A DNA stretch of 64,000 nt. Origin: Lingula anatina (taxonomy: Eukaryota > Animalia > Brachiopoda). The translations under genes and the position numbers were made by a program. The stretch spans positions 33,734,401 to 33,798,400 of the forward strand of contig CM120641.1 of assembly GCA_051362555.1 (NCBI GenBank), written 5' to 3'. Positions 34,450 to 63,865 of this stretch are shown here, piece after piece. Each line of letters opens with the position of its first letter. Positions within the stretch are counted from its first letter, which is position 1. The notes beneath the pieces were generated by a model. It was given only the letters and a program-made list of their open reading frames with translations. It searched no databases and had not been told where the DNA came from.

Positions 34450-34707
34450 GTCCTTTAAAATGTAGAAATGGTTAGAAATGGATAGAAATGGAGCGAAATG
34501 GACCAATATAGATCTCCTGTTAAGCATAGTAAACCCCCTTGAGATCGTATTTGGGTTCTAGATCATAAAAATAATCTTACATTTGCACCAGAAAGGTGAT
34601 TTGCTGAACTTTCTAGAGATACATCGTCGGAGGCTGTAATTAGGTCAAGGTCGCCAGTTTCGGGGTGGACTCCAAATCGAGGCTGGTGTTTGGAGCCCAT
34701 TTGCTCC
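34450..34707. repeat. Left copy of a ~258-bp near-perfect inverted repeat (partner 46909-47167)
   Basis: Reverse complement of 46909-47167 with only a few mismatches; (TAGAAATGGA)-type 10-mer tandem at the outer end. Confidence 0.9.
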
Positions 34708-34928
34708 ACAGCAACAGAATTAGAATGTGAAGACCTCATACATTTAACATATTATGGATTGTGTAATTGGTCCGATTTATCCAGACAAGAGCAGTTTTCT
34801 TGTTTATGTAATTGACATGTTGAGTAATTTCATGAGAAGAACATTTTCATTAAAATTAATTTGCAGAATTACTTATAAATTAATTAGGTTAATTGATATG
34901 TACAGCAAGACAAATTTGTTAATTAAAG

Positions 34929-42270: not shown

Positions 42271-43722
42271 TTTTTTTTTATTCACGAAAATTAATTAATA
42301 CAACACAAATTATTACAACACAATAAGAGACAACTACACCTTCCACACGTCACTCACACACTACAAGTGAAGTTCTTACATATGTTGATTATAAATACAT
42401 GTATAATTTTTTTTAATAACAGAATCTTAGTATATAGGCCTAGGCTATGTACAACAAATGTTCTTTTGTATTCATATCAATATTTTTTCTATACTGTCCC
42501 ATTTTTTTCTTAGATTATCTGCCTTTTGAGGACCCAGTTGGTAGAAAGATTGAAAATCTATTTTCTTTTGCTTTTCCAAATACTTTTTGCAGGCATTCCA
42601 AAGAAGTGTGATTTTATTCTGTCTACATAGAGTGAAATATTTTTTTATATGGAGAAGCAGTAGATTAATACCTAAAAGAGGGCTGTCGTCCAGGATTCCA
42701 AATATAAACAGGCACGGTTGTTGTTGTAATGCAACAGAGTACTGTGTACGTAGGTTCTGAATGAGACATATGTCCAAATAGCTTGAACATATGTACAGTC
42801 CCAGAAAATATGCAATAAAGTTTCTTGGGTCATTACAGAAAGTGCATCGCTCATGTTCTAACATATTGTATTTAAAAAGCATTGAATTCATAAAATAGAT
42901 TCTATGCAAAATTCTAAATTGCAATGTGAGAAGTTTATGATCATTTGTTTCTTGAAAGGGCAATGCATGAACTAGCTTACACTTTTAACTTAGAAAATCA
43001 ATGTTCAGCTTTTCCCTCCACTTATCATGGATGTTAAAAGGTATTGCTTTCTTATCCGAAATAAATTTCGTGTAAAAAAAGTTTCGTTAATTTGTTTTTC
43101 GATTTTAATAGTACTAGATTTTTATTTGTTATTGCTGCAAGATACTTTTGATACCTTCTTATAACAGTTTTCCAGGCAGAATGTAAAGCGCTGATGACGC
43201 CTTGATAGTCAAGGAAATTACAATCTATATTATATTCATCACAAAAAACGTCTAGACTTTTTACTGAGCCAGTATTATCAATCAGGTCTTTAACGTAAAG
43301 CACTCCTTTTTGAAACCAAGGTTTATGGAAGATTATCTTTTTATTGATTTAATATGATCATTTCCCCATAAAGGTTGTGCTAGGATATCATCCGGAGAAG
43401 TAGTAGAAAATTCTTGTACAGAAGCCCATATTCCCAAAAGCTCTTTCCAGAAAGTATTTAGTATATTAATATTGCGTATAGACTGTAGGCCCTTCAATGG
43501 AAGTAGCAATACGTCATTTCCCCCGATTTCCGCAAATTCATTCATCAAAAGAGTTTTCCACGAAGAACAATTATGTGGATTTACCAATTTCTTTAGCCAC
43601 ATCAATTTAAGAGCTTTACAGAAGGATTTCACCTCGGGGACCTTTATTCACCGTTTTCATAAGAATTAATCATAACATTTCTCTTAACTTTATCTATTTT
43701 ACTGTTCCAAATAAAGCGATAA
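42271..43722 (-). mobile_element. 5'-truncated, frameshifted LINE (L1/Tx1-like ORF2 C-terminus)
   Basis: Minus-strand ORF pieces KSFCKALKLMWLKKL, LAQPLWGNDHIK, LYVKDL, LQFRILHRI...CTFCND/ETLLHIFWDC (RT-associated zinc-binding motif split by a frameshift). AATAAAAAAAAA tail at 42271. Possible diverged TSD AAAAGGTAAGAAC / AAAAGGTAAAAAT. Confidence 0.85.
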
Positions 43723-46700
43723 AAAAGGTAAAAATTCATAGAAAGGTACTGTGTGCACCTGAACTAGCCAAGTTAATGTTAATCTTATGTTAGGGTTAGG
43801 AAAACATTATTAGCTTAGTTAGTAATTTTCCAAACTATATTAATTGTTTGAAATACAGATAAATCAAAGTAACAGCAATATTAAAATTTGATTACATTGA
43901 AAACCAAACACATACAGTGCGTTTTAGGTTGGGGAGCATATTGCCAAAGTAGGTAATACATGAAATATCGTTATATAGCACCATATATGCTTGTGTCGTG
44001 GTTTACGGTGTTGTATCATTGCTGAATAAGTTAATACCTGATAATGTTTCCAAGGCTGCCCAGTGCATGTCAACTAGCTGAATGACTTCTTAGAATGCTC
44101 CCTCGTGTGAAAGTTATTGTCGTTATCATTAATGATTATTATTATTTCAAGCACATTTTGAAGTGCCTATGCTTAACCAGGGAGAGTCAAATTTTAAGCT
44201 GAAGTATATAAGATTTAATTATCACTTGCACAGTTGTTAGATCATTTATATTTGATTTTCCATTATCATGATCATGATATGAAGTCTGTCTTTTCTCTCA
44301 TCCTTAAAGGAATATGTCATGTAACAAGGGAAGTGCCCTTTATTAATTTTTCTCTATACTTTCAGATGCAAGACTGTACAAATGGATGTGAGCGTAGAAC
44401 AGGGGAACAAAATGTAAATCTATCACAGCAAGAGAACTCTGGAATTTTGAAACTATGACAATATTTACTAGTGGTTGGTCGAGTCCTCACCAAGGGCTGA
44501 TGCGGCATAGATCAAAGTATTTACACATTGGATACCTAACGGGGCAGGTTTATTACAAGACTTCTCCATCGTGTTCGGCAAAGGAGTTGCCTTTGCACTT
44601 GTGTGTCATCCAAAGTACACAGTTAGGCCTTATTAATGGATGAGACAGTTACTTAACACCATCCTTGGATTTATTAGCTGCAACACCCATATTAACAACC
44701 CCCAACAATAAATTAACTAGATCAACGTATAAGTACATACCACTACTTTATTGGCACCAACCTTGTTGACATTTCTGAAAGATTGATTTATTCTGGTATT
44801 GATTGAGTACATTATGTAGTTTACTGACCGGTGAATGACAGATAGAAATACATTTTGTGATTTTTTACTATTTAATACAGTTATTATCTCTTCGTCAGTC
44901 AGTGTCTGAATGGTATTTGCATTCAGGAACTGTAGATCTGTATCACCATTGCTGTTACATCTGTGGATGTGTCCAAAAAAAATGCTTCATGTTTGATAAT
45001 AACTGGTTTAAAATAGTTTTTGTTAATCTTGATGCAATATTTTGTGATGATGAACTGGATAATCATCACTGAGTTTTAAATATCTACTGTTATATGGACA
45101 TCCTACTACTTATGGAGTCATGCTCAAACACAAATTTATGTCCCACATAGAAAATGCCAATGGGTGAGAAATGAACAATCCAGTAGCAGCATTACTCCCA
45201 GAAAAATAATCGAGATAATTCAGATAAAAAAATTATTATTATTATTAGTTTCAACTCAAGCTGTATTTTGAGCCTATGTGTCTCTTAAGTGATATGAGTA
45301 TAATAAATCAAATGGTTTCCTAAAATGGGTACTATGGCTGCAGCGTTTTTTCCCAAATTTGATGCAACATTACATAATGCTTAACAGCATAATCACCACC
45401 AACTAATTATGCACTGTAGGTAGCACAGATATTCAGAAAATGTGTCAGGGCCCCATCATTTCAATGTGGTTGTCCTAGCAGCTCTTGGTCTCTTTGGTTG
45501 GTTGGGTTTCCCTTTGATGCAGATGGCATAACATGCAAACCAGTGACGGAGGAAACCATATTGCATTGCATCTTTGCCGTTTTCATGAATTTTGATAGGT
45601 GCCTTGTTCTCTGTTCTTGGGACTGATACACAATACTGAGAATGAAAATAAACATATACATATTTTCTTAGTAATAATATACTTTTGTAAAACTGAATGA
45701 AAGTTTTCAGTCTTCCAGTAGAATTGGAATGAGAATAAGGTATAAGTGTAATACTAAATGTAAGGTTCAGAATTAAATATTTATGTAATTCTCAAAATAC
45801 TTTCAGGTTTAGATACTTAACTGACTGACACTAACTCACTACAAACAACCTAAGATTTATCAAGAGATGCTTCTAATGCCAGGTTAAATTTATCAATACT
45901 TAGCACATTGATTGCACTTAAATGCCTGGACACTTAACTGACTGAGACTAACTAGTTAAATTACACACAGTTGGTAGATACAGGTAGCTAACCTGAAGTA
46001 TGCAGAGAAACTTCTGTCCAGGTAAAAGCCATGGTGTTTCAATCCTATACAGATAACCCTGAAAAAATTGAGATTATTAACCATGTTAAGTCTATAAGCA
46101 CAAGTCATTAACTTTCGCTTTATAAAGGAAATCTTCCTGAATAGATCTTCCATGAGTTAAATCTGGCTAAATCCACCAAATCACAAATTGTGATTTCCAT
46201 TTATATGTCTTAAAATTATGTTGACATTTTAATTTGTTTTATTTTTACAATTCCAACAAAGAAAAGGTTCTTTGTTTATTTTCAACCCAGTAATAAGGCC
46301 TACTGTTGATTAAAAAAAAACCCCGGTTCATTTACTAGAAAAGTTTAAGCAAAATTAATTAAAAAAGAAAAACAAAAACAGGTAAGCAATGATTAAGATA
46401 AACAAGATATTGATATAACAAATCCATTAAGTGTTTGTTTGGGGAATCCAACTTCATGGTGTTATACATACCAATAATGCAACTGGTACAAATTTGTGTT
46501 TCCCCCCCCTACATGCTGAAACATCAATATGTTAATTTGACTAGTAATTTAAAATTTGATACACGGAATGAGAAAAAGGTATAAAGTGACTGTGTTATAC
46601 TGGAACTTACATTTAGCAACTAACCGATGTTGCAGCGAGTCTTAGGTGCTAAGTTGAAACTGCAACCTCTGTTAATAACTAAATGAAAGATTCAGAATTA

Positions 46701-46908
46701 AATATTCATGTTATTCTCAAAATACTATATATTATTACTTATTAAAAATAAATAAATTATATGATAGGGAATATAATATATCAATAAATGCATAGTAAAT
46801 TAAACTTACTCCCAATACACTCAACAGCAAAACTTACCTATATTCCAATAATTTTACCCCTAAAAACACCATAGGAAGGGGGCCTGAAAATTGCGCTGTG
46901 AAAGTATA

Positions 46909-47167
46909 TGGAGCACGTGGGCTCCAAACACCAGCCTCGATTTGGAGTCCACCCCGAAACTGGCGACCTTGACCTAATTACAGCCTCCGACGATGTATCT
47001 CTAGAAAGTTCAGCAAATCACCTTTCTGGTGCAAATGTAAGATTATTTTTATGATCTAGAACCCAAATACGATCTCAAGGGGGTTTACTATGCTTAACAG
47101 GAGATCTATATTGGTCCATTTCGCTCCATTTCTATCCATTTCTATCCATTTCTACATTTTAAAGGAC
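46909..47167. repeat. Right copy of the ~258-bp inverted repeat (partner 34450-34707)
   Basis: Near-identical reverse complement of 34450-34707. Confidence 0.9.
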
Positions 47168-48073
47168 CGCTTAAAAGGGTATAATTAAGCAAGAGTGAAA
47201 GTGAAAATACCGTACATGTATTACACCAAATGTCAGAACTTAGGATAATTTTGAACGGAATTTATTAAATTTTTCAAGTTATCAGGTAAGATTGCAGATG
47301 ATCAGTCTTTTGGGTGTGCAGATGATCAATCTTTTGGGTGTGCAGATAATGTTAGTCGGTCATGATTTCAGGGATGTAAACTAAATTTAAAATCCTTCCT
47401 GCAGCTTTGACCTTACTACTGAAAAAATAGTATTTATGCTATATGTTGTGAGTGTAAATGCAAATGGGTGTTGCTGGAGTTATACTGATTATACTGATAA
47501 ATCAACGGCAATTTAGGTAACATACTGTACATGTATCTTAGTTTGTGAAACTTTTTCATTTTTAACACCTAATAAAATATAAGCACTAATTTTTATACAA
47601 ACGTGAAACTACTAGCTGTCATGAAGAAAAAGACACGTGAGTCTAAAACTTTTCAGAAACATGTTAAGAATAAGTTGTGTAAGCAGTAAGAATATAATAT
47701 TAGGAAACTTTTCAGGTCTGATAAGATACTAATAGGAATTAATTTAATAAATCTGTCAATTAATTGGCTAACAAAATTTGCTGAAATATCCATAGTTCTA
47801 CATGTTTGGAAGTTTTGAAGAGGTGATTTTTCTTATGAGAACAGGCAAAAATTAATGCGCTTGCAGATGTCATCTATAAATTGGAACAATTTGGCCTTAA
47901 ATGGAAAGAGGAAAGAGTCAAAATTGTGTTCAAAATTCATATCATGTGATTGTGCCAATGGTTTACCTCTTATATCATGTGAATAATATAATATCATGTG
48001 TATCTAAGTAGCTGGGGATTTACCTATCCCACCTCTTTTCAATTTTTTCAGTTATTATGAGAGAAACACTCCG

Positions 48074-48157
48074 ATGGTACTTAAAACTGGAGAATGCCTG
48101 GTTTTCTTGTTAATCATACATGTATTACCAGTACAGCATGTGCATTCTTATGAAATT
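48074..48157 (+). CDS. TNFR-CRD/TSP1 membrane receptor, coding exon 1 (signal peptide)
   Basis: MVLKTGECLVFLLIIHVLPVQHVHSYEI followed by a phase-0 donor GTAAGT; upstream acceptor TTTTTTCAG at ~48051. Join 48074-48157, 49018-49321, 50002-50175, 50495-52131 = 2199 nt, open throughout, ~732 aa. Confidence 0.7.
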
Positions 48158-48418
48158 GTAAGTATCTATAACACATTTGCATTGTTTAAAAGGTAATACA
48201 CGCCACTCAGTCTATTACACCTGTACAACTTGCCATTACTGCCAAAGGCAGTCACTTTAATATTCTGTGATGGGCTGTCATTCTAGAGCATGACATACTT
48301 CACAAGAAAATTTAGGTCAAGATGTAATTTCTTTTTAAATCATGAAAAGTTAATCTATTTTCTTGCTTATTTTGAAATTACCAGTAGTTTTTTGGTTCAA
48401 ACTGGAAAGAAAATATTA

Positions 48419-48952
48419 GGCTGCATTCACAACAGGTAATCCTTAGACTAACACCCCATTTCCATAGATTAGATCGACCTACTTTAGATCGACTTAACTC
48501 CCTGGGGGTTCACGCTAAATAGCTGTCAGCTGGGCGGACACGAAAGTTAATTACCCCCTTACAGCTTGTAGTAGGCGGGACGGACATTTAAGTCGGATTA
48601 TCTGAAAGTAATCCAGTGAGACTCCCCGCAGGGATAGATCGATCTAAAATCTATGGGAATAGAGCCTAACTAGTCTGTGGAAATATGGCCGACCTAGCTC
48701 ACTTGTAAGCAATGTTGCATAGTCTCCTCAGGTTCTCCCTGCCTACCACACATGCTATCCCTGCAGGGGCCTAGCAATTAAAGCTAAATCAAAACAGCTC
48801 CTAGGTTTAATTCCTAGGCTCCTGTATGGATGGTGCATGTGGAAATTAGGCTGGGAGACCATTAGGAGATTATGTGCATTACTTTAACTGGGGTTGGCCA
48901 TAATAGATCTGCAGAAAAGTTAGTTGGAAGATCATCTGTTGTGAATGTGACC
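48419..48952. mobile_element. Harbinger-like MITE in intron 1, with a nested GATCGATCTA-type MITE (~48455-48668) related to ~18168-18390
   Basis: Imperfect TIR GGCTGCATTCACAACAG / CTGTTGTGAATGTGACC after TTA. The internal element has inverted ends around ATAGATTAGATCGA / TCGATCTAAAATCTAT. Confidence 0.5.
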
Positions 48953-49017
48953 TTTGAGTGAATTAACCCAGTCAGTTGAAAACTGGAATGGGCAAAGCTT
49001 CTCTTTATTAGTTCCAG

Positions 49018-49321
49018 TTTGGGGAATCATGTGATAACAACACAAGATTAGTTGGCAGTTACAGAGCAATAAATTACTCACACTATGCCTACACCCTCGA
49101 AGGTCAGACACATGTTTGTGAGATGTGCTTCCCAGGTTACAGAGTCAAGAACCATTGCACAAATTCTTCTCGTCACCGTGGTTCAGATTGTAGGGTTTGC
49201 CCAGAAGGAACCTACAGTAACTGGACATGGGAGTGCCGGTGTAAAAATTGCACAGATAGGCCTTCAGAACAGCACATCCTTTATTCAAAGTGCACTTCAA
49301 CACAGGATGCAGTATGGATAA
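49018..49321 (+). CDS. TNFR-CRD/TSP1 membrane receptor, coding exon 2 (two TNFR-type cysteine-rich domains)
   Basis: Phase-0 acceptor (TTCTCTTTATTAGTTCCAG; alternative AG at 49011). Encodes CEMCFPGYRVKNHC...SDCRVCPEGTYS...CKNC...CTSTQDAV, the TNFR CRD signature, with five N-x-S/T sequons. Phase-1 donor A|GTAAGG. Confidence 0.8.
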
Positions 49322-50001
49322 GTAAGGATACCACACACACACGTACACATGCACACACAACCTACTTAATTAAGATCTATAGATCAACTCAAATCTACAG
49401 GGACTCTTGATGAATGCAATCAGCTAAACTAAATGACAAGTCTCCTCCATGCATTAAGTACATCACAGATATAATACTGTTGATCATAATATACAAATAC
49501 TTTTGAAACAAGAGGAAGTGTGTCATTCAGTTCAGCTGATTGCACCTAGCAAGAGTCCCCGCAGAGATAGGGTGATCACATTCACCAGTGGTGTCTATGG
49601 GAATGGGTCCTCAGTTGAAACAAAAACAAAAAATACCACTTTCTCAATTTAGGCCAAGTTCTGAATATCTCTGTCCAATTTCTGAAAGACTTACATATGC
49701 ATGGTAAAAATGAATAAGAAACAAGAATCTTTAAATTCTTGACTTTCAGGTTTTACATGCTAGAAATTATAGTATTATTTGCTTGGAGTATAAAGATGCT
49801 TTGGATCATCAGTACACTGAGAAACAATATAGTTAAGGTGTTATTGTTAATCCAGTTGTTGGCCACATTTGTACATCTGTAATGCAGTCCCTGAGGCATT
49901 TTTCTGCTGGTTGAAAATGCAGTGTCTGTAGAATATGGTGTGTGATGTTTGATATATATAGAGAGAGGTATGTATATATACTCTTGGCATTTCACTTACA
50001 G

Positions 50002-50175
50002 CTGTGATTGAGACCTGGGGACCTTGGAGCCAATGGAGCTTGTGTAGCGTAAGTTGTAGCAGTGGTGTAAAGACAAGACAAAGGAACTGCACCCAGCTGA
50101 GACATACAGGAAGTAGGAATAACTGCCAAGGAATTTCCACTGATATGTTGCCTTGTTATCGCCATGAATGTTCAG
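50002..50175 (+). CDS. TNFR-CRD/TSP1 membrane receptor, coding exon 3 (thrombospondin type-1 repeat)
   Basis: WGPWSQWSLCSVSCSSGVKTRQRNC...CQG...PCYRHEC has the WxxWxxW, CSxSC and RxRxC hallmarks. Symmetric phase 1-1 exon bounded by TTACAG and G|GTAGT. Confidence 0.9.
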
Positions 50176-50494
50176 GTAGTCTATTAGATAGATGTTTACA
50201 TATTTCTCAGTAAAACTCCGTCTTAATTGCATTCATGATCAAGCCATCATCAATTCAGCTGTGAACGATATTGTGAACAAAACTGCAATATTGACAACTA
50301 GCATTAAATTGTCAGTTGAGGAAAGTAACATGGTTATTTAATGAAAACTTTATAATGCACAATCAGTGAACCCAACCATGTTAAATCCATCCTTCTTACA
50401 TGTATGTAGTATTATATCCATTGTTTCAGCTAGCTGTACTTACAGTCACACTTGTCATCTACTATATAGTGTTTTTCATTACTTCTCATTCCAG

Positions 50495-52131
50495 CACCTA
50501 ACTTTGGACCCTATTTTGATAAATTTCCATTGGCATTGGTAATTGGCATACCCTGCTTATCCACAATCATCTTGTGCATCAGAAGAGTTATATGCAGCAT
50601 AAAAAATTCAAAACAAAGTCATACTAAAAAGAAAATAGCTTTCAACTGTATCAACTGTTGCAGTAAAAATGATGAGCAACAGTTTACAGAAAGTGCCTCA
50701 CGTAGACAAGACATACAGCCATACTCAATATTTTTTTCTTCTCCAACTGAAAATGTTTCATTGACCAACCAATCACAGGATTTGTGTCAACCTGATTGTG
50801 ATTTGTCTCACAACACTCATTGCACTATAAACTTGCATCCTGAACCTAGAAAAGAAACTTGGACTTGTCAGACATTGGTTCCACCAGTGAGCAGCTTTCC
50901 AGAACATTCAATTAATAATACATTTTCTTATCCACTATCATGTGCAGAGTCATCTGATGAAGAGACAACAGGTGGATATGCAATGGCAGACTTGGACATC
51001 AGCTGTCCTTTAAATACAAAAAGCAAAGGTCTAAAACAATACCCAAGATACAGCCAAACTGAAAATGAAGTCTCCAATTTGTCTTCTGATGAAGAGACAA
51101 CAGGTGGATATGCAATGTCATACTTAGATGTTAGTCATCCTTTGAATACTGGAAGGAAAGGCACCAAGCCATGTCTTAATACTAGGGATAGATATTACCA
51201 AACAAAAAATGATGAAGTTTCTACTTTGTCATCTGATGAAGAGACATCAGGGGGATATGCAATGGCAGACTTGGACATCAGCAATCCTTTGAATACAAAA
51301 AGCAAAGGTGCTAAACTTTACCTTAAAAGATACACCCAAATGGAAAATGAAGTGTCCAATTTGTCTTCTGATGAAGAAACAACAGGTGGGTATGCAATGG
51401 CAGACTTGGACATCAGTCCTTTGAATACAGGAAGCAAAGGTGTTAAACAGTTCACCCTTACAAAAAATAAAATGTCTATGTCACCCAATGAAGAGACAAC
51501 TGGTGGATATGCAATGGCAGACTTGGACATCAGCAATCCTTTGAATACAAAAAGCAAAGGTGCTAAACATTACCTTAAAAGATACACCCAAATGGTAAAT
51601 GAAGTGTCCAGTTTGTCTTCTGATGAAGAAACAACAGGTGGGTATGCAATGGCAGACTTGGACATCAGTCCTTTGAATACAGGAAGCAAAGGTGTTAAAC
51701 GGTACACCCTTACAAAAAATGAAATGTCTAATTTGTCACCCAATGAAGAGACAACTGGTGGATATGCAACTTCAGACTCGGGCATCAACAGTCCCTTGAA
51801 TATGGAAAAAGAATATGGAGAATATATCCATACAGGCAGTTACCCTCTTTCATCAAGGCAAGATTGTGTTAAACACTGTATGCATCCTACTTCGTGTTAT
51901 ATCTTAGTACCTGTGCCTGCACCATCACGTTTAGATTCTGTGTTGACAGGTCAAAATAGCAATGACATGTTATTAGACTACACAACCACCCAACCTGACA
52001 AAGGCAAAATTCCCAGAAATAAAGTTGAAAATAAGAAATATGAACAGTTGCAAAAAACAGAGAGTGAGTCTGCATTGGAGCCCTACACTCCACTTCTGAT
52101 CTCTGAGCAGACATTGCCCAAGGTTTTGTAA
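50495..52131 (+). CDS. TNFR-CRD/TSP1 membrane receptor, coding exon 4 (TM helix + ~510-aa cytoplasmic tail with 7 tyrosine-motif repeats)
   Basis: Acceptor CTTCTCATTCCAG, phase 1, in frame with the 533-aa ORF. Hydrophobic FPLALVIGIPCLSTIILCI followed by RR. A 1.6-kb open frame in AT-rich DNA. AATAAA signals at 52841 and 52855. Confidence 0.85.
50950..51800 (+). repeat. Coding tandem repeat, 7 units of 117-147 bp
   Basis: Units start at 50950, 51082, 51229, 51364, 51481, 51616 and 51736 (periods 132, 147, 135, 117, 135, 120, all multiples of 3). Confidence 0.95.
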
Positions 52132-52254
52132 CACATAAATCTTTTAATTCTTCTTGACAAAAATTGAAGATATCTGCTGTGGTGAAGGACACTGACAGTG
52201 AAATTGAGAGCGAAAAAAAAGAACTGTTTCTTCTTTATTGTGCATTGATCCAAT

Positions 52255-52255
<1 letters not shown>

Positions 52256-52323
<68 letters not shown>
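52256..52323. repeat. (CT)n(TA)n compound microsatellite in the putative 3' UTR
   Basis: Direct reading of the sequence. Confidence 0.95.
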
Positions 52324-52325
<2 letters not shown>

Positions 52326-52336
52326 TTTTGTGAATA

Positions 52337-52471
52337 CCCTTAGCAAAATATCTGGCCTGCTGCAAATTCACAGCAAGTTTGCTGCAATATTGCTGCAGAC
52401 TGCAATTCCTTCTTGCAAAATTACAGCAAGTTTGCTGCAATATGGCTGCAAACTTTTCATTTTGCTAAGGG
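52337..52471. mobile_element. Small MITE in the putative 3' UTR
   Basis: TIR CCCTTAGCAAAAT / ATTTTGCTAAGGG flanked by TA; a degenerate inverted second copy lies at ~52574-52640. Confidence 0.65.
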
Positions 52472-53449
52472 TATATGTAATATATATATATATGGTAGAT
52501 AGTTAAGTGTTGTTTGTTATTTGGGCAACATTTATAAGATATTTCATGATATTTGTTTTTTTTTACTTGATAACTTAGCAAAATGAAAAGTTTGCAGCAA
52601 ATTTGCTATAAATATTGCAGGCCTAATATTTTGCCAAGGGAATTTTTATAAGCATATTTTTCATAAACTGGAGAAACCAGTCTTGTCTCTATATAAAAAG
52701 AATCAAGTTTTAAATTCTAAGTACTAACTAGTTATTTATTTATAATAATACATAATACAAAATTTTCCAAATTGTTGATTGAAGTATGTACATTGTACAT
52801 CATGTATGATAGTTGTTATGACATTTACGTATGCTTTTATAATAAATACATTACAATAAATTTTCAAAGATTAATCAAAAGAGTCAATATAGCTGTGCAA
52901 TGAGAACATGCTGTGATTTACATCAATGTGATTTAATCAATGTCTACAGTGTTTATACTATTTCTAATTTGAAAACACTTAGGAATATTTTTTTTTCTAT
53001 ATTTAAAGATGTTAATTATTCCTGTCAGTATAAGCTATGTATTTTTATATGGATAATATTTTTGGTAAATTTGTTTTATAAATGTCTTGCTAGTCATGTT
53101 ATATATTGTATCCAGGATTTTATTATCGAGTATTATTAATTTTTTATCTATACTCTATTAGCTATATGAGAAAGAGATATAATGTTTATTCCTCTATTCT
53201 AGTGCAGGTGGGGAGGACAGTTTTTAATCAAAATTCAACAACTTTTGTCAATCAAATATAGAAAATGTGTTTGTACATATAGATGTCACCTGCATCTGTC
53301 GTTGCTGTTGCCATCATGCACTTTCACAGATAATACAATAAGTGGAAATCATTTTACCTTTTGGCTTTAAACGTAACAGAACTGATGAATATTCATAATA
53401 TGCAGGTGGTGTTTAAAAATTAGCATATATGCAACACTGAAAACACATT

Positions 53450-53826
53450 AAGTGGGAAACCATTTTACCTTTTGGCTTGTTTTATATGTAATTTTTCATA
53501 TAGACATGTTATTTATATCTTTAAAATAACATGTCTATATAAATTGTTTTTGTGTGTATTAATTAAAGGGACTTCTATATGTATTTAAAATATTGTTTTT
53601 GTATGTATTAGTTAAAGGAAGAAAAGTCGGCTGTAAGTGGTAAACCATTTTACCTTTTGGCTTGTTTTATATGTAATTTTTCATATAGACATGTTATTTA
53701 TATCTTTTAAATAACATGTCTATGTAAATTGTTTTTGTGTGTACATGTATTAGTTAAAGGGACTTCTGTATGTATCTAAAATCTTGTTTTTGTATGTATT
53801 AGTTAAAGGAAGAAAAGTCGGCTGTA
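53450..53826 (+). repeat. ~186-bp direct tandem duplication adjoining a degenerate HINE fragment (53264-53480)
   Basis: AAGTGG(G/T)AAACCATTTTACCTTTTGGCTTG...GGAAGAAAAGTCGGCTGTAA occurs twice in tandem. Confidence 0.85.
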
Positions 53827-56199: not shown

Positions 56200-56599
56200 T
56201 TTATTATTTATTTTGTGGTCACAGATAACTTGCACATTGATTGAATGATATCATTTTCTGTTCACATAGTCAGCTTCGTAACAGTGAGGGGTGTTAATCC
56301 AAATGTGAGTTCCATCAACACAACCTATCACACCTGGGAAGTGTATGTTTCTCATCCTATAGAACCCATCTTTGATGTTGGCCATATTTTGTGCATTTGG
56401 AAATTCCACATAATCCCCAATCCTTGCTGCAAGAGCATTTGATACATGATGAATTGCACGCCAAGCGGTTTGCTGGGACACTTGCAAAGGGTCCCCAACA
56501 ACATATTGGAATGTGCCTGTTGCATAGTATTGCAGGGCTATCATTACCTGCTGGCATGGTAATAAGGCATGATTTCTCCTGGTTGGATGAGTAATGTCA
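56200..56599 (-). mobile_element. PIF/Harbinger (HARBI1-like) DDE transposase remnant
   Basis: QVMIALQYYATGTFQYVVGD...FPGVIGCVDGTHIWI...YVNRK*YHSINVQVICD, with an in-frame stop. The 5' part is cut off by a HINE at 56600, so the ORF-track N-terminus [13 protein letters not shown] is HINE-derived. Confidence 0.9.
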
Positions 56600-58476
56600 T
56601 TTTTATGTACAGACACAGATGTGTCTGTACATATTGCCATCACCTGCGTCTGTCGTCGCCGATGCCGGCGCCATGCACTTTCCTTGTTAACACGATAAGT
56701 GGAGGGCAGTTTTACTTTTTGGCTTTATATTTACAGAGCTGATGAATATTCATAAAACGCAGGTCAAGCTCGAAAATCAGCATGATCAGGCCATTATTGT
56801 AGAAGTTATGCTGTTTTTTCACTTTTCAGCATATATGCAACCCTGTTAACACATTTTAAGGAAAACCTTTTGCAAAATGCCCCTGCTCACAAGTCTGTCA
56901 TTGCCATGGCTGCAATCAACGAGTGTGACTTTGAACTGATAGAACATCTACTTATTCGCCTGATCTTGCTCCCTCTGACTATTATCTATTTCCCAAATTG
57001 AAAAAGGCCATTTCAGGTACTCACTTTGTGTCAGATGATGACGTCATACGTGAAGTGGAGGGGTTTCTGAACGACCAAGAGAAGGGCTTCTATAAAAGTG
57101 GCTTTTGTGGCTCTCAAAACTAGCTGGCAAAAGTGTATAGATACTCAAGGAGACTATGTTGAAAAATAAAAAAAAATAATTGTAAAATGTGTACCCCTTC
57201 TATATGAGGCTCACTACTTATCAATCAACCCTCGTATAACATATTACTTAACAGCATAATGGCTACAATTTTTTATAAAAAAATAAAAGTATCATGGATA
57301 TTCAGAAAATGTGATATGGGAAGGTCTTCAAGGCCATGGAAGTTCAGAGCCACACTTTCAAAATGCCAAAATGTAAACAAGAGATAACTGTACTGAAATG
57401 GTTTTCTTTCCATTTTCAACACCTTTTTTACATAAAACAAAATAATCAATTCTCTGTCATTTTTAAATGATCAACTAGGAAAATTGTTGACATAGGAAAA
57501 ATATCAATAAAACAATTTTAAATGTCCAATTTGCTCCATTCGCAGATTCTGAACATAGTGAATGATTGAATCTGACAAACTGCAATGATGAGTTCCTTTC
57601 CATTTTTGATACTTTATTACACAATGCACGATAACAGGTTTACCGTCATTTTTATACAATCAACTAACAATATTGTTAAGAAGCAGAAAATGTCAAAACA
57701 ACACTTTTACTAATTAGTTCCATTATGAGACTGTCAACATGCCTAAGAATTAAATCTAAAGAAAAAACACTTATATACAAAAAGGCTAATAACTTCATCA
57801 AAAGTTAACTGATCAAGCTTATTTTCAAACTTGATCTGTATACTAGTTAGACTAATCACTCCTGTGAGTTGCAAGACAAAAGGCTGCTTGGTTTTCCTTA
57901 AAATGTGTTATCAGTGTTGCATATATGCTGAATAAGGGAAAAAACAGGATAACTTTTGTAAAAAATAGTCCAATCAAGCCAATTTTCCAACTTGACCTTC
58001 GTATTATGAATATTCATCAGTTCTGTAAGTTTCAATCCAAAAGGAAAAAAAATTAACACTTATCTTATTATCCATGTTATAAAAATGCTGAAAAATTTGA
58101 AAAAAAAGAATAATTTCCATAAAAATTGCCCAATCATGCTGATTTTCAACTTTGACCTGCGTATTATGAATATTCATCAGTTTTGTAAGTTTCAAGCCAA
58201 AAGGTAAAATGGTTTTCCACTTATCGTGTTATCGGTGCTGCATATATGCTGAAAAAAGTTTAAAAAACAGCATAACTTCCCTATAAATGGCCCAATCATG
58301 CTGAATTTCGAACTTCACCTGCTTATTATGAATATTCATCAATTCAGTAAGTTTCAAGCTGAAAGAAAAAACGATTTTCCATTTTTCGTGTTATCGGTAA
58401 AAGTGCACGGCGACGACGGTGACGACAGACGCAGGTGATGGCTATATGTACAGACACATCTGTGTCTGTACATAAT
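56600..58476. mobile_element. Two outward-facing HINE 5' halves (56600-56867 +; 57237-58476 -) joined through a mariner fragment
   Basis: Same hairpin, microsatellite and ~160-bp subrepeats as the 1-29 kb family. Confidence 0.8.
56868..57234 (+). mobile_element. 5'-truncated copy of the mariner derivative
   Basis: Highly similar to 60051-60418, encodes YSPDLAPSDYYLF, and ends in the TIR ...TATCAATCAACCCTCG|TA. Confidence 0.9.
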
Positions 58477-59371
58477 AAAAAGGAATGACATAGAATGTAA
58501 AGAACCTGTCTGATGTACTCTTGTAGTCCATTTACACCATGTAACCTAAGAACAAACCACAGCTTTAAGGAGCGAAATCTACGAGCCAGAGGAATTTGCC
58601 AATGCTAGAAAAATAATAATCGATATTAAATCTGTGTAACGGCTTTTATAGTTTTTTAAATAACAATCCATGGGATTTTTCAGAAAATCAAATCAAATAT
58701 ATGATTATTGGCAGCAATCATTTTTTCATTTTGTATTTTAGGATATGTATGTATCAAATACAAAAGTTCATTAAAAAAGGCTTTAAAATCAAAAAAATTT
58801 TAGAAATATCAGAAGAGAGGCATGACTATGACTGCATTCCCATATCCCTACTGTACTAGCAGGATTGATCTATCTCAGCGGGGTTTCTTGCAAAGCAACA
58901 TGAACAAATTCATGGACTAGTTTGCTGCTGTCTTTTAACCTAAATAAAAGGCACCATGTAGTGGTTTACTTTTCATCAAAGCAATCTGGGTGATGATATG
59001 TGATTGTGCAAAACTTGTCACCAGTACAGAAATGAGGACAGTCAGTGAATAGGCAGAGAAATGTCTTTGAATATGGGCATTTTTACAATCCTGGGCTCCT
59101 TTTTTTCCCACCAAGGGTAAAAAATGGAAATCATTATTGTGTTGAAATTAGTACTTTTCTTGAAAGTATAGACCTGAAGGGTATAAGAAATGACAATCCC
59201 GAGATAAAACCTTGTGTATGTATAAAGATATGATTATTTGAATTTTGAAAATCATTTTTTAAATTTTCATAAGCTAAACCTTGAAGTGTGTGACTTTTAT
59301 GATAATTTAAGGTATTGATCTCCAAAAAAACACTTAGTTTTACTCAGAGAGTATTGCTCTTTTATGTATTT

Positions 59372-60418: not shown

Positions 60419-62683
60419 TATCTTATTTCCAGTTTCTTTTGTTACAGTTCATAGCTGTATAAAATATTATTTGACAATGTCAGATTTACCATGTTTAAAA
60501 TATGTCCTTTCAGACATGTCCTTGTTTCAGAATGGACATTTATTTAACATTTATGAAATTGCCTTAAGATCTCATAGTATGTTGGTACTGGGGAAGCAAT
60601 CATTGGACAAAATATGAGTTAACTAGATTAAAATTGAACTGTTTTTATTACATTAATTGGTCATTTTGGATAGTTTTGATTCTTTTTTGAAATGTTACTC
60701 TATTAGTATTTGATCATGACATAAAATAGAGTCTTCTACACTCCATTATACCCTATTCTACTTCCTTTTGATAAAGCTCATAGCTGTATGAAATAGTATT
60801 TGACAATGTCAGGTTTAAATTTAGTAATAACATTTTTAAATACGTCCTTTTAGGCATGTCCTGTGTTTATTTAACATTTACAAAATTGCTTAAATGGTAT
60901 ATATATTTATTTTTATAAATAATCACAGGAAGTTAATTTTAACCTGTGTGTGCCTGCAAGCACCTCTGTAAAACGTGCCAGTGAATTGACTCTCGCAACT
61001 TTAACATATGTAGCCTCATAACTATTTTCGAATACTTTTATGTACATCATAAGTAAGCAATATTAAAGTAAGGTAAGTTATATTATTCCAAATTATATTC
61101 TACATAAATTTGATGTGCTTTCCATCATCCTTTTCCTCATGAATAATAAATAGATGAGCAGACCAAAGAGTAAACAAGTGTTTTAGACAATCTGTTAAAA
61201 AATGTCCTTTCCGATACAAAGCATCCAAATTGCCTTTATTTCTATTTAAACTGATATAATCTCTTCAATTAATTGTTAATTTAACTTTGAAATACATGAA
61301 CTTTGGGAAAATATGCAATGGAAGTTCTAGTAGATCCAAAGAAAAGATGCTGACTTGCAAAAATGAATTTTTTTGTTGAGGATATATATAGAAATTTAAA
61401 AAGATGCCATTGTAGAAATGTTTTTCTATTATTTTTATGTCATATTCATGATGCTCTAACAGTAATTTGCTCATGTCAAGTGAAACATACAGCATTAAAG
61501 ACAGAATTCTCTCTATTTATAACATTGGCAATGTAAAGGTACTTTGTTTCGGAATGGACAATTTTTAACAAGCATCTCAAAGAAGGCCTCAGTTAAATGG
61601 GTTTCTGTGCACTGGGGTTTTCTTATATAAAAATAAATATCACATGTCCTGGGCTTTAAAGAAATATATATTGTTACAGGCTAGGTGTCAACATGTTCTT
61701 TTTATGTAAGAGAAACCCAATGTTTCGGAATGGACAAATTTAACGTAAAAACACAGTAGGGTTATTTTGCACTCCATGTCAAGCTCAAGAATCATCGCGC
61801 AGATTTCATTATTTGATACAAACAATACCAATACATCCAAATAATGATTAACATGGTTAATTATACTGTATGTTTTATGATATATTTTCTGAAAGTAATT
61901 TATTTTTGTTTCGGAATGGACATTTCGTTTAACGGAAATACCAGCATCCCATTTAAAGACTTTTTTTCTAGGATACACCTCTCTACTTCTTTGCTTCCAC
62001 CGTACTACTGAGTGTTTAATAATCCAAAAAAATGCAATGTCAAACACTGTTTTAATTTATTTCAGATTCCCTTTTATATCATATGACCAAAACGGGAAAA
62101 TTTTTGGTCATTTTTTACTTTGGACTCGGTGGTGATATTTGGTTTCTATTTTCAGTGTTTATCTTCACTTACACCATTCTCTAACATAGTGATAAAATAA
62201 TTCTTTGATCATATGTATGTAATTTGTTAATTAGCAATATGTGGGAAAATCTGAAAAGTGCCCAGGATTGTAAAAATGCCCATATCTAAGTGAAAGAATC
62301 TCTGTGACTCTAGTAGAGGATTTCAAAAGTTTCCTTAATTAATTCAGATTTAATGCATGCAAGTTTCTTTATTTATTGCTAATATGTCTTTGATTTGAGT
62401 AATAAGTAAAATAGTTGAAACAACTAGTTATAATATTTAGCTTTAAACAAGATCCCCTTGAGATAAGAATACTTAAATGACAGAAAAACATATAAATGAC
62501 AAATATAATTGAAAAAGAAATCAAGTACTGTTTTGAAAAAATCATTTTGAGCCTCCATATAATCAAGCCATTTAAATTTATGAGCAGGAATAAGTGAAAA
62601 TTTGAAAAATAAAAAAGATGGCAACAGTTCCATGTATGTTGTTGGCGAAACGCCACTTAATCAATTCTGTTGACTGGTCTTAC

Positions 62684-63865
62684 CTGAATGACCCCGCCCC
62701 CTTTGCCTCCAGAGCAGAATAGAAACTGCTCTGGCAAATCCAGCATCTTCCCCAACCAGTCCATCATAATCATCTCCAGCTCTGTGCATGCCGGATTGGC
62801 TGTCTGGGAAAAGAACATAAGCCCGTGTTTTCCTTTATTAATAAGAAAATAACAAAAAGGTCTTTGCTTCACCCTGAGTTTCAGAGGGCTGGAAACTCGC
62901 CTCATTGTGCGTGCTTTCAGCATGCATGGCAGGGACAAGCTGGTAACATATAGATGTGAGTTTCAAGTCACACATGGATCTCAGACAGCTTGATTTAGAT
63001 GTCTTGAAGAGTCTCATTTCTAATGGTATCGAACAACAAATAAAATACAAGTCAGTTTCCAGCCCCCCCTCCCCCCCCCCCCCCCCCCCCCCCCCCACTT
63101 TTGTGAAATCTTGGGTCCTCCGGTGTACAGTAGAAAAATCAGCTTACTCAGGTAAATCCAAGACCACCCATAGCATCGGAGAGCATGTCGGCACAGATGG
63201 CAGCGTAGGATCTGACTGAAGGGAAATAGCCATGGAACTGCGGGTGATTCCAGTGCGTTGTCTAGAGTATTGTTTGATTTAGATTAGACACAAAATATAT
63301 AAATCGTGCCAAAAATATAATATAGAGATTATTAACCATCAACTTCTTAGCAGAAATGTTACAAACAATATTCTATTTCATATACAACATTTTTTGTATG
63401 ATTATGATTTTGAATTAGATTTCTGTGATTTAGCTGCCTTTTTCTCAAGTGAGGAAACCGACTAAAACGAAGCAATTCAGATTCAATTAAAAAACAATCC
63501 TCTTTAAACTACAACCCTTGTACACTAAACTATTGCTCATCTCTTAAAGACAGTAAAGCCAATATACTAAAAATCAACTGTATATTTTGCCATGTGTATT
63601 TTATATTTAGCCGCGTGGCGCATGCGCAAACGATAATTTACCTGTGTGCCTATAAGCACTTACCCCAGGCATAATAACCCGCTCTAAGTCACCAATAACG
63701 TCCTTTCCATGACTCAGCAGTATCTGGGGCAGTTTCCGGAAGGAGCTGGCGCTTATATCCGGCTATGCAGGATATACTGGACGATTCTGCACATTCTCTA
63801 AGTAATATATCAGCCACCATGTCTACTATTTCTTTCCCACGAACACGGAACTCTGCAGCATCCAT
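62684..63865 (-). pseudogene. Ddc: Aromatic L-amino-acid (DOPA) decarboxylase-like gene; three coding exons 63865-63664, 63261-63148, 62803-62684; disabled as assembled
   Basis: MDAAEFRVRGKEIVDMVAD / YLENVQNRPVYP / GYKRQLLPETAPDTAESWK / DVIGDLERVIMPG; TTHWNHPQFHGYFPSVRSYAAICADMLSDAMGGLGFT*; [40 protein letters not shown]. Canonical GT-AG boundaries. Three frameshifts in the first exon and TGA in place of the conserved Trp at the end of the second. Confidence 0.85.

What the first reader, a model, noticed from the sequence alone, without database searches (positions are those of the whole stretch)
48074..52131. Unusual receptor architecture: TNFR cysteine-rich domains + TSP1 + TM + repeat-rich tail without a death domain
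Seen: four exons with compatible phases (0, 1, 1) give an open ~732-aa protein with a signal peptide, two TNFR-type CRDs, one TSP1 repeat on a symmetric phase 1-1 exon, six extracellular N-glycosylation sequons, a TM helix and a ~510-aa low-complexity tail. Known: canonical TNFR-superfamily ectodomains consist of CRDs and signal through death domains or short TRAF motifs, and TSP1 is a classic phase 1-1 shuffled module. I do not know a characterised TNFR with a juxtamembrane TSP1. Inference: an exon-shuffled, lineage-specific immune or adhesion receptor, and the best candidate for a new signalling system in this window.
Basis: partly seen in the sequence, partly recalled or inferred. Interest (0 to 1): 0.8.

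Follow-up and report, generated by a model that had tools for sequence, protein, structure and literature searches.

The report
TNF-type receptor with thrombospondin stalk
A lamp-shell (Lingula) gene has four in-frame exons for a predicted membrane receptor that joins two TNF-receptor modules to a thrombospondin module and carries seven repeats of a likely TRAF-adaptor docking motif instead of a death domain, so it would be an exon-shuffled variant of known non-death TNF receptors, with ligand and signalling untested.

Summary
Observation confirmed. Exons 48074-48157, 49018-49321, 50002-50175 and 50495-52131 (phases 0, 1, 1) give 732 aa: signal-like helix, two TNFR cysteine-rich domains, one TSP1 repeat, a TM helix and a tail with no Pfam domain. 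A Lingula anatina RefSeq model (XP_023932733.1) has the same CRD-TSP1 and TSP1-TM joins. RNA reads cover the exons thinly; no junction read row was listed. New here: both CRDs are incomplete (4 and 5 of 6 cysteines; OPG/DR6/DcR3 type), and TSP1 sits where related receptors have CRD3-4. The tail holds seven 39-49 aa repeats (five in RefSeq) whose core shows purifying selection. Each has [SP]x-E-E-T, and two match the strict TRAF1/2/3/5 motif (compare CD40 PVQET). Best reading: a death-domain-less, TNFR2/CD40-like receptor with a multivalent TRAF-docking tail; ligand unknown and possibly not a TNF. No second CRD+TSP1 protein or paper was found, though the searches were weak for this. TNFRs without death domains, with repeat tails, or fused to other domains are already known in invertebrates. 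Verdict: real, apparently single-lineage, a new variant of a known kind; not shown to be a new signalling system.

The parts
48074..48157 (+). Exon 1: start codon and predicted signal peptide (about aa 1-25); phase-0 donor
   Evidence: 89% identical to aa 31-58 of the RefSeq model; thin RNA depth
49018..49321 (+). Exon 2: spare Cys33, CRD1 (about aa 52-86, lacks the C1-C2 pair) and CRD2 (aa 89-128, sixth Cys is Trp). The RefSeq model uses the acceptor 6 nt upstream, at 49012
   Evidence: Pfam TNFR_c6; PDB hits to TNFRs; alignments; RNA depth
50002..50175 (+). Exon 3: one TSP1 repeat on a symmetric phase 1-1 exon; six Cys, WxxWxxWxxC and CSVSCSSG
   Evidence: Pfam TSP_1; PDB hits thrombospondin-1 and properdin; motifs
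50495..52131 (+). Exon 4: short stalk, TM helix, whole cytoplasmic tail and stop codon
50524..50580 (+). Predicted TM helix (aa 198-216) with a central Pro, followed by basic residues and several juxtamembrane Cys
50947..51852 (+). Seven tandem in-frame repeats (132, 147, 135, 117, 135, 120, 120 nt); core [SP][DN]EET-[TS]-GGYA with a TRAF-type motif and one Tyr each
52039..52095 (+). C-terminal YxxL-x11-YxxL pair (ITAM-like); reached by 10% of tail shuffles, so weak
48057..48113 (+). Out-of-frame upstream ATG and 18-codon ORF overlapping the start in this haplotype; the matching Met is in frame in the RefSeq model

Best explanation
The gene has exons for a predicted type I membrane receptor, likely made when a thrombospondin (TSP1) exon replaced the membrane-near half of an OPG/DR6-type TNF-receptor ectodomain, and it likely signals like TNFR2 or CD40 by docking TRAF adaptors on seven tandem tail motifs rather than through a death domain. 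Shown: exon structure, domain identities, the repeat array, and an excess of synonymous change in the repeat core. Inferred: (1) CRD1-2 mediate self-association and/or ligand contact, with TSP1 as a rigid glycosylated stalk or second binding surface; (2) clustering, possibly helped by the TM proline, presents the [SP]xEET motifs to trimeric TRAF2/3-like adaptors; (3) several motifs on one chain raise avidity, so repeat number would tune the threshold for NF-kB/JNK output. The ligand is unknown and may not be a TNF, because CRD3 is absent and CRD2 lacks its sixth cysteine.
For: The frame, phases and domains are confirmed. A RefSeq model from another assembly has the same two joins and 18 substitutions in 648 aligned residues. 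CRD hits are TNFRs: 15 of 16 PDB rows, with OPG, DcR3 and DR6 on top for a profile made only of this exon and a clam TNFR. The closest named invertebrate relatives are 4-CRD Mya receptors without a Pfam death domain. In the tail, 7 of 7 units carry [PSAT]xEET and 2 of 7 carry strict PNEET, matching Px(Q/E)E and Px(Q/E)xT as given in PMC6125299 and PMC7215387. E-E-T is invariant, and S changed to P at the P-2 position. In the first 23 codons of the unit there are 14 synonymous and 15 non-synonymous changes, ratio 0.34, p 0.004, against 1.0 in the spacer. TRAF binding is known to rely on avidity (PMC9597381). Snail TNFRs without death domains are proposed to use TRAF2. A TM proline motif is common in TNFRs.
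Against: No binding or signalling was tested. Five of seven units have Ser, not Pro, at P-2; that Ser is tolerated (TNFR2, CD30) is recalled, not from a call. The copies descend from one ancestor, so they count as one event: a shuffled 44-aa unit has the broad motif 9.6% of the time and the T-extended form 1%, and that extended pattern was chosen after seeing the sequence. SDEE is also a generic acidic CK2 site, and the equally conserved GGYA suggests another partner. The 13-codon core alone is not significant with all seven units (p 0.075), and without unit 7 the spacer also falls to 0.45; these are rough event counts. The CRD score is below Pfam's cut-off. Fas binds its ligand with CRD2 and CRD3, and CRD3 is missing here. 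Expression is low and no junction row was listed. The Mya tails have no such motif, so it is not inherited family-wide.
Confidence: 0.5

Rival explanations
1. An adhesion or recognition receptor that signals through phosphotyrosine: TSP1 and the CRDs bind a non-TNF surface ligand, and the seven acid-preceded tyrosines plus the C-terminal YxxL pair recruit SH2/PTB proteins.
For: GGYA is invariant in 7 of 7 units. There is an ITAM-like pair at aa 703-721. The TSP1 keeps its Trp ladder and resembles thrombospondin-1 and properdin. The top single-sequence PDB hit is the short viral receptor UL144, recalled to bind a non-TNF partner.
Against: The repeat tyrosine is followed by A-M-A, which fits neither YxxL/I nor YxxM. 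YxxPhi motifs are not enriched (7 against 5.0 expected), and the ITAM-like pair arises in 10% of shuffles. This reading can coexist with the TRAF reading.
Confidence: 0.25
2. A young or decaying chimeric gene, or a decoy, with little signalling of its own.
For: Apparent singleton, incomplete CRDs, low RNA depth, an out-of-frame upstream ATG in this haplotype, and four CRD1-region differences between the two versions.
Against: The frame is intact in two assemblies, all repeat length changes are multiples of three, the repeat core shows synonymous excess, and CRD2 and TSP1 have no amino-acid differences between the versions.
Confidence: 0.15
3. The CRD exon and the TSP1/TM exons are not mainly in one transcript; for example exon 2 reads on to the stop at 49410 and gives a small secreted two-CRD protein.
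For: No splice joint was listed in two read lays. The exon-2 frame stays open for about 30 codons into the intron. Whether the RefSeq joins rest on reads was not seen.
Against: The same joins occur in the RefSeq model. Splice sites are canonical and phase-matched. Exon 3 has no start or signal peptide of its own. The intron-3 bin has depth 0 in 4 of 4 runs, and the last intron-2 bin 0-0.17, while the exon-3 bin has about 1 in 3 of 4 runs.
Confidence: 0.1

Closest known systems
Non-death TNFRs that signal through TRAFs (TNFR2, CD40, CD30, OX40; snail BgTNFR1-3, PMC8995041)
   Same: Type I topology, tandem CRDs, no death domain, Px(Q/E)E/T-type tail motif (CD40 PVQET, PMC6125299).
   Different: A TSP1 domain next to the membrane, only two incomplete CRDs, and the motif repeated seven times in a tail of about 510 aa.
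OPG / DcR3 / DR6-type ectodomains and the Mya arenaria 'TNFRSF11B-like / TNFRSF5-like / TNFRSF16-like' models (XP_052800965.1 and P0011-P0013)
   Same: CRD1 without the C1-C2 pair; 27-38% identity over CRD1-2; two Mya proteins also have tandem-repeat tails with no death domain.
   Different: They have four CRDs with an intact sixth Cys in CRD2 and no TSP1. Their tail repeats are unrelated (best E 0.13).
Invertebrate and chordate TNFR hybrids (amphioxus TNFR-caspase, PMC2575513; a TNFR+Ig cluster in the Atlas)
   Same: TNFR CRDs recombined with a foreign domain.
   Different: Other partner domains. TSP or thrombospondin is not mentioned in that paper's main text.
Single-pass receptors with TSP1 next to the membrane (UNC5; PDB hits)
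   Same: A TSP1 directly before the TM helix (layout recalled).
   Different: UNC5 has Ig domains outside and ZU5/UPA/death domains inside (recalled); no CRDs.
Lingula anatina LOC112042432 (XP_023932733.1)
   Same: The same gene in the reference assembly, named 'uncharacterized'; precomputed Pfam lists only TSP1 families.
   Different: Five repeats instead of seven, acceptor at 49012, a 30-aa longer N-terminus and 18 substitutions.

Membership tests
TNFR superfamily | One or more extracellular TNFR-type CRDs | tested here: met
   Pfam TNFR_c6 E 7.7e-6, below the curated cut-off; 15 of 16 PDB hits are TNFRs; 18 of 18 with the two-sequence profile; Atlas structure neighbours are TNFRs at TM 0.58-0.66
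TNFR superfamily | Six-cysteine CRD pattern (C1-C2, C3-C5, C4-C6) | tested here: not met
   CRD1 has 4 Cys, as in the OPG/DR6 type; CRD2 has 5, with Trp128 at C6 in both gene versions; Cys33 is spare
TNFR superfamily | Signal peptide and a single TM helix | tested here: met
   Hydropathy only; SignalP and DeepTMHMM were not available
TNFR in the strict sense of bioRxiv 10.1101/2021.12.26.474206 | No functional domain other than CRDs in the ectodomain | tested here: not met
   TSP1 is present; criterion read
TNFR superfamily | Binds a trimeric TNF-family ligand | not testable with these tools
   No Lingula TNF sequence was held; CRD3 is absent
Death receptors | Cytoplasmic death domain | tested here: not met
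   No Pfam family in exon 4 at E up to 1
TRAF-coupled TNFRs (TNFR2/CD40 type) | TRAF1/2/3/5 motif Px(Q/E)E or Px(Q/E)xT in the tail | tested here: met
   Strict match in 2 of 7 units, Ser variant in 5 of 7; no TRAF6 motif
TRAF-coupled TNFRs (TNFR2/CD40 type) | Actual TRAF binding and NF-kB/JNK activation | not testable with these tools
   Needs bench work
TSP1 (thrombospondin type 1) repeat | Trp ladder, CSxxC, RxR, six Cys | tested here: met
R-spondin (cysteine-rich pair plus TSP1; layout recalled) | Furin-like repeats, secreted, no TM | tested here: not met
   No furin-like Pfam hit or R-spondin PDB hit for exon 2; a TM helix is present
ITAM-bearing receptors | YxxL/I-x6-8-YxxL/I (spacing recalled) | tested here: inconclusive
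   One pair with an 11-residue spacer; 10% of shuffles have one at spacing 6-12

The most novel reading that the evidence does not exclude
A brachiopod receptor that feeds a non-TNF cue, such as matrix, cell contact or a microbial surface read by TSP1 plus truncated CRDs, into TRAF/NF-kB signalling. One chain would carry enough TRAF sites to engage TRAF trimers without a trimeric ligand, and allelic copy number of the motif (five or seven) would set signalling strength.
Probability: 0.15. Interest if true: 0.72.

Novelty: new variant of a known kind. Interest (0 to 1): 0.45.

Why it matters
What death-domain-less invertebrate TNFRs do and what they bind are listed as open questions (PMC4979521). 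This gene offers a clean test case: a modular ectodomain swap and a tail with a countable, apparently variable number of predicted TRAF sites, which can be assayed in a reporter cell line. If one chain can engage TRAF trimers, it departs from the rule that TNFR signalling needs ligand-driven trimer clustering. If not, it is one more lineage-specific shuffle in a genome that has many.

Tried and rejected
No whole genome is held, so paralogues, TNF ligands and TRAFs of this animal could not be searched. No RNA holder was listed in the run index; nine same-species raw-read runs were offered and six were laid (X1, X4, X7, X8; X7, X8, X9, X2). Neither lay listed a splice joint of this gene. One search was swamped by intron repeats and hid 20 joint rows. 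One search used 97% likeness, which proved too strict for this polymorphic animal and lost most exon reads; rows need three reads. The AlphaFold2 model of the ectodomain had pLDDT 39, so no fold search was run. The profile search is partly circular because the alignment held a fish DR6 row; one search repeats it without. Atlas feature searches gave only TSP1 clusters under 0.8 or no usable hit, which shows neither absence nor novelty. Word-based searches had very few candidates (3, 84) and cannot survey architectures. Three of the six non-self HMMER hits (P0002, P0003, P0006) are ephrin-receptor-like cysteine repeats and were set aside. No second CRD, TSP1 or repeat copy lies in the window. 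The TSP-1/RANK/OPG paper concerns another part of thrombospondin and was rejected as support. TRAF6, NPxY, dileucine and tankyrase motifs are absent. One paper on UL144 was not held. No complex prediction was sent. In one search the motif letters printed for P0007 are mis-indexed and were not used.
Full report
Observation. I read window 46500-53500 and tested 56 splice-site combinations. Two give one open frame: exons 48074-48157, 49018-49321, 50002-50175 and 50495-52131 (732 aa), or the same with the acceptor at 49012 (734 aa). Phases are 0, 1, 1 and all introns are GT-AG. Hydropathy shows a signal-like helix at residues 8-18 and a TM helix at 198-216 followed by basic residues. Six sequons lie outside the TM. 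Pfam gives TSP_1 for exon 3 (E 1.1e-10, above cut-off), TNFR_c6 for exon 2 (E 7.7e-6, 26.7 bits, under the cut-off of 29.4) and nothing for exons 1 and 4. Exon 4 is open for 544 codons where shuffles give 37 stops on average.

Identity and support for the joins. The only protein found with the tail (1 of 7991 scored candidates) is XP_023932733.1 of Lingula anatina, an 'uncharacterized' RefSeq model. It differs at 18 of 648 aligned residues and has five tail repeats against seven, so it comes from another haplotype or assembly. It reads through the same CRD-TSP1 and TSP1-TM joins. It is a prediction, and I did not see its read support. It also has a 30-residue longer start; in the window the matching upstream ATG (48057) is out of frame.

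RNA. Six of nine listed same-species runs were laid. At 90% likeness depth was 0.15-4.3 in the exon-2 bin, about 1 in the exon-3 bin in 3 of 4 runs, and up to about 4.6 in exon-4 bins. It was 0 in the intron-3 bin in 4 of 4 runs and 0-0.17 in the last intron-2 bin. In run X1 all exon-4 depth was on one mate orientation, which fits a + strand RNA under the usual library convention. The first half of intron 2 and part of intron 1 had depth that I attribute to repeats. No splice joint of this gene was listed (20 rows hidden) or (97% likeness, too strict). So the gene is weakly transcribed, and the joins are well predicted but not observed here.

Ectodomain. Exon 2 hits TNFRs in the PDB (15 of 16 rows, best UL144, DR6, HVEM). 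With a profile of this exon and one clam receptor, OPG, DcR3 and DR6 come first. The Atlas's own model matches TNFR clusters at TM 0.58-0.66. My AlphaFold2 model was uninformative (pLDDT 39). CRD1 has only four cysteines, as in the OPG/DR6 type. CRD2 has Trp where all six aligned relatives have the last Cys, in both gene versions. That leaves Cys106 and the extra Cys33 without canonical partners; they may pair with each other or between chains (inference). The nearest named invertebrate relatives are four-CRD receptors of Mya arenaria, so TSP1 stands where CRD3-4 would be. The TSP1 has six Cys and a full Trp ladder, and matches thrombospondin-1 and properdin best. Fas binds its ligand with CRD2 and CRD3 and self-associates with CRD1 (PMC7214685, passages), so binding of a TNF is uncertain here.

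Tail. Seven in-frame units of 117-147 nt span 50947-51852. Units 3-4 and 5-6 form a 252-nt duplication at 93%; its absence in RefSeq may be allelic variation or assembly collapse. Counting each codon change once, the first 23 codons have 14 synonymous and 15 non-synonymous changes (ratio 0.34, p 0.004) and the ungapped spacer 8 and 31 (ratio 1.0). The 13-codon core alone gives p 0.075, and without unit 7 the spacer ratio is 0.45. The core is therefore probably constrained as protein. All seven units have [SP]-x-E-E-T. Two read PNEET, which meets both Px(Q/E)E and Px(Q/E)xT, the TRAF1/2/3/5 motifs (PMC6125299 and PMC7215387, passages; CD40 is PVQET). Tolerance of Ser at that position is recalled. 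The copies are one evolutionary event, and a shuffled unit has the broad motif 9.6% of the time, so this is suggestive only. An invariant GGYA follows, and a YxxL-x11-YxxL pair ends the tail (10% in shuffles). These keep a phosphotyrosine reading open.

Mechanism. I favour (0.5) a death-domain-less receptor that clusters through its CRDs and TM and docks TRAF trimers on the repeated motif, as TNFR2 and CD40 do. Avidity of this kind is described for TRAF6 (PMC9597381, passages). Rivals are phosphotyrosine signalling by an adhesion or recognition receptor (0.25), a decoy or decaying gene (0.15) and unjoined exons (0.10). Every step beyond the sequence anatomy is inferred.

Distribution and literature. 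HMMER over 1.84 billion representatives found 7 proteins at E up to 0.001 for exon 2: the gene itself and six weak hits at 34-40% identity, none with TSP1. The profile search added three Mya proteins, none with TSP1. These searches cannot exclude diverged CRD+TSP1 proteins elsewhere. Eight paper searches bore on the architecture or on invertebrate TNFRs (listings only), and none listed a CRD+TSP1 receptor. 'TSP' and 'thrombospondin' do not occur in the main text of PMC4979521 or its one held supplement, bioRxiv 10.1101/2024.07.27.603686 (supplements not seen) or PMC2575513. Of bioRxiv 10.1101/2021.12.26.474206 I read part 1 of 4 and passages; by its definition a protein with a non-CRD ectodomain module is not a TNFR proper. 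PMC11463336 (passages) had nothing on this. A 2018 survey of Lingula immune genes that I recall did not appear in these searches and may bear on novelty.

Comparison and verdict. Several features are already known: all three Biomphalaria TNFRs lack a death domain (PMC8995041, passages), two Mya receptors have tandem-repeat tails, and TNFR hybrids exist in amphioxus and as a TNFR+Ig Atlas cluster. Two unchecked notes of this scan report TNFR-protease hybrids in the same genome; I did not test them. What I could not find elsewhere is the CRD+TSP1 ectodomain and the seven-fold TRAF-type array. The gene works most likely like a TRAF-coupled TNFR but fails the strict family definition. It is a new variant of a known kind, so far from one lineage; interest 0.45.

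Noticed in passing
window 34450-34708 and 46909-47167: A 259-nt inverted repeat at 99% identity, 12.2 kb apart, ending about 900 nt upstream of the start codon. It looks like the ends of a recent DNA transposon, but I saw no clear target-site duplication or intact transposase between the arms.
   Followed up: partly
window 48450-48670: A short repeat in intron 1 that draws thousands of RNA reads from other loci, with opposite-strand joints; MITE-like.
   Followed up: no
window 62657-62959 (-): Exon-sized piece of a pyridoxal-dependent decarboxylase (PF00282, E 4.3e-11), probably a neighbouring gene.
   Followed up: partly
window 56254-56724 (-): Transposase fragment with HTH_Tnp_4 (E 8.7e-6, under cut-off), Harbinger-like by recall.
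   Followed up: partly
window 42472-43647 (-): ORF pieces that look like a decayed non-LTR retrotransposon (by eye; no Pfam hit for the two tested).
   Followed up: partly
window 5000-29000, 53265-53500, 56600-58500: A dispersed satellite-like family with a period of about 160 nt, many copies on both strands, abundant in RNA reads.
   Followed up: no
window 49035, 49050, 49109: Three reads of run X7 show a further allele of exon 2: one Asp-to-Glu, one silent and one Thr-to-Ile change.
   Followed up: partly
proteins P0005, P0011 (Mya arenaria): Clam TNFR models with their own tandem acidic/basic tail repeats and no Pfam death domain; repeat expansion of TNFR tails may recur in lophotrochozoans.
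   Followed up: partly
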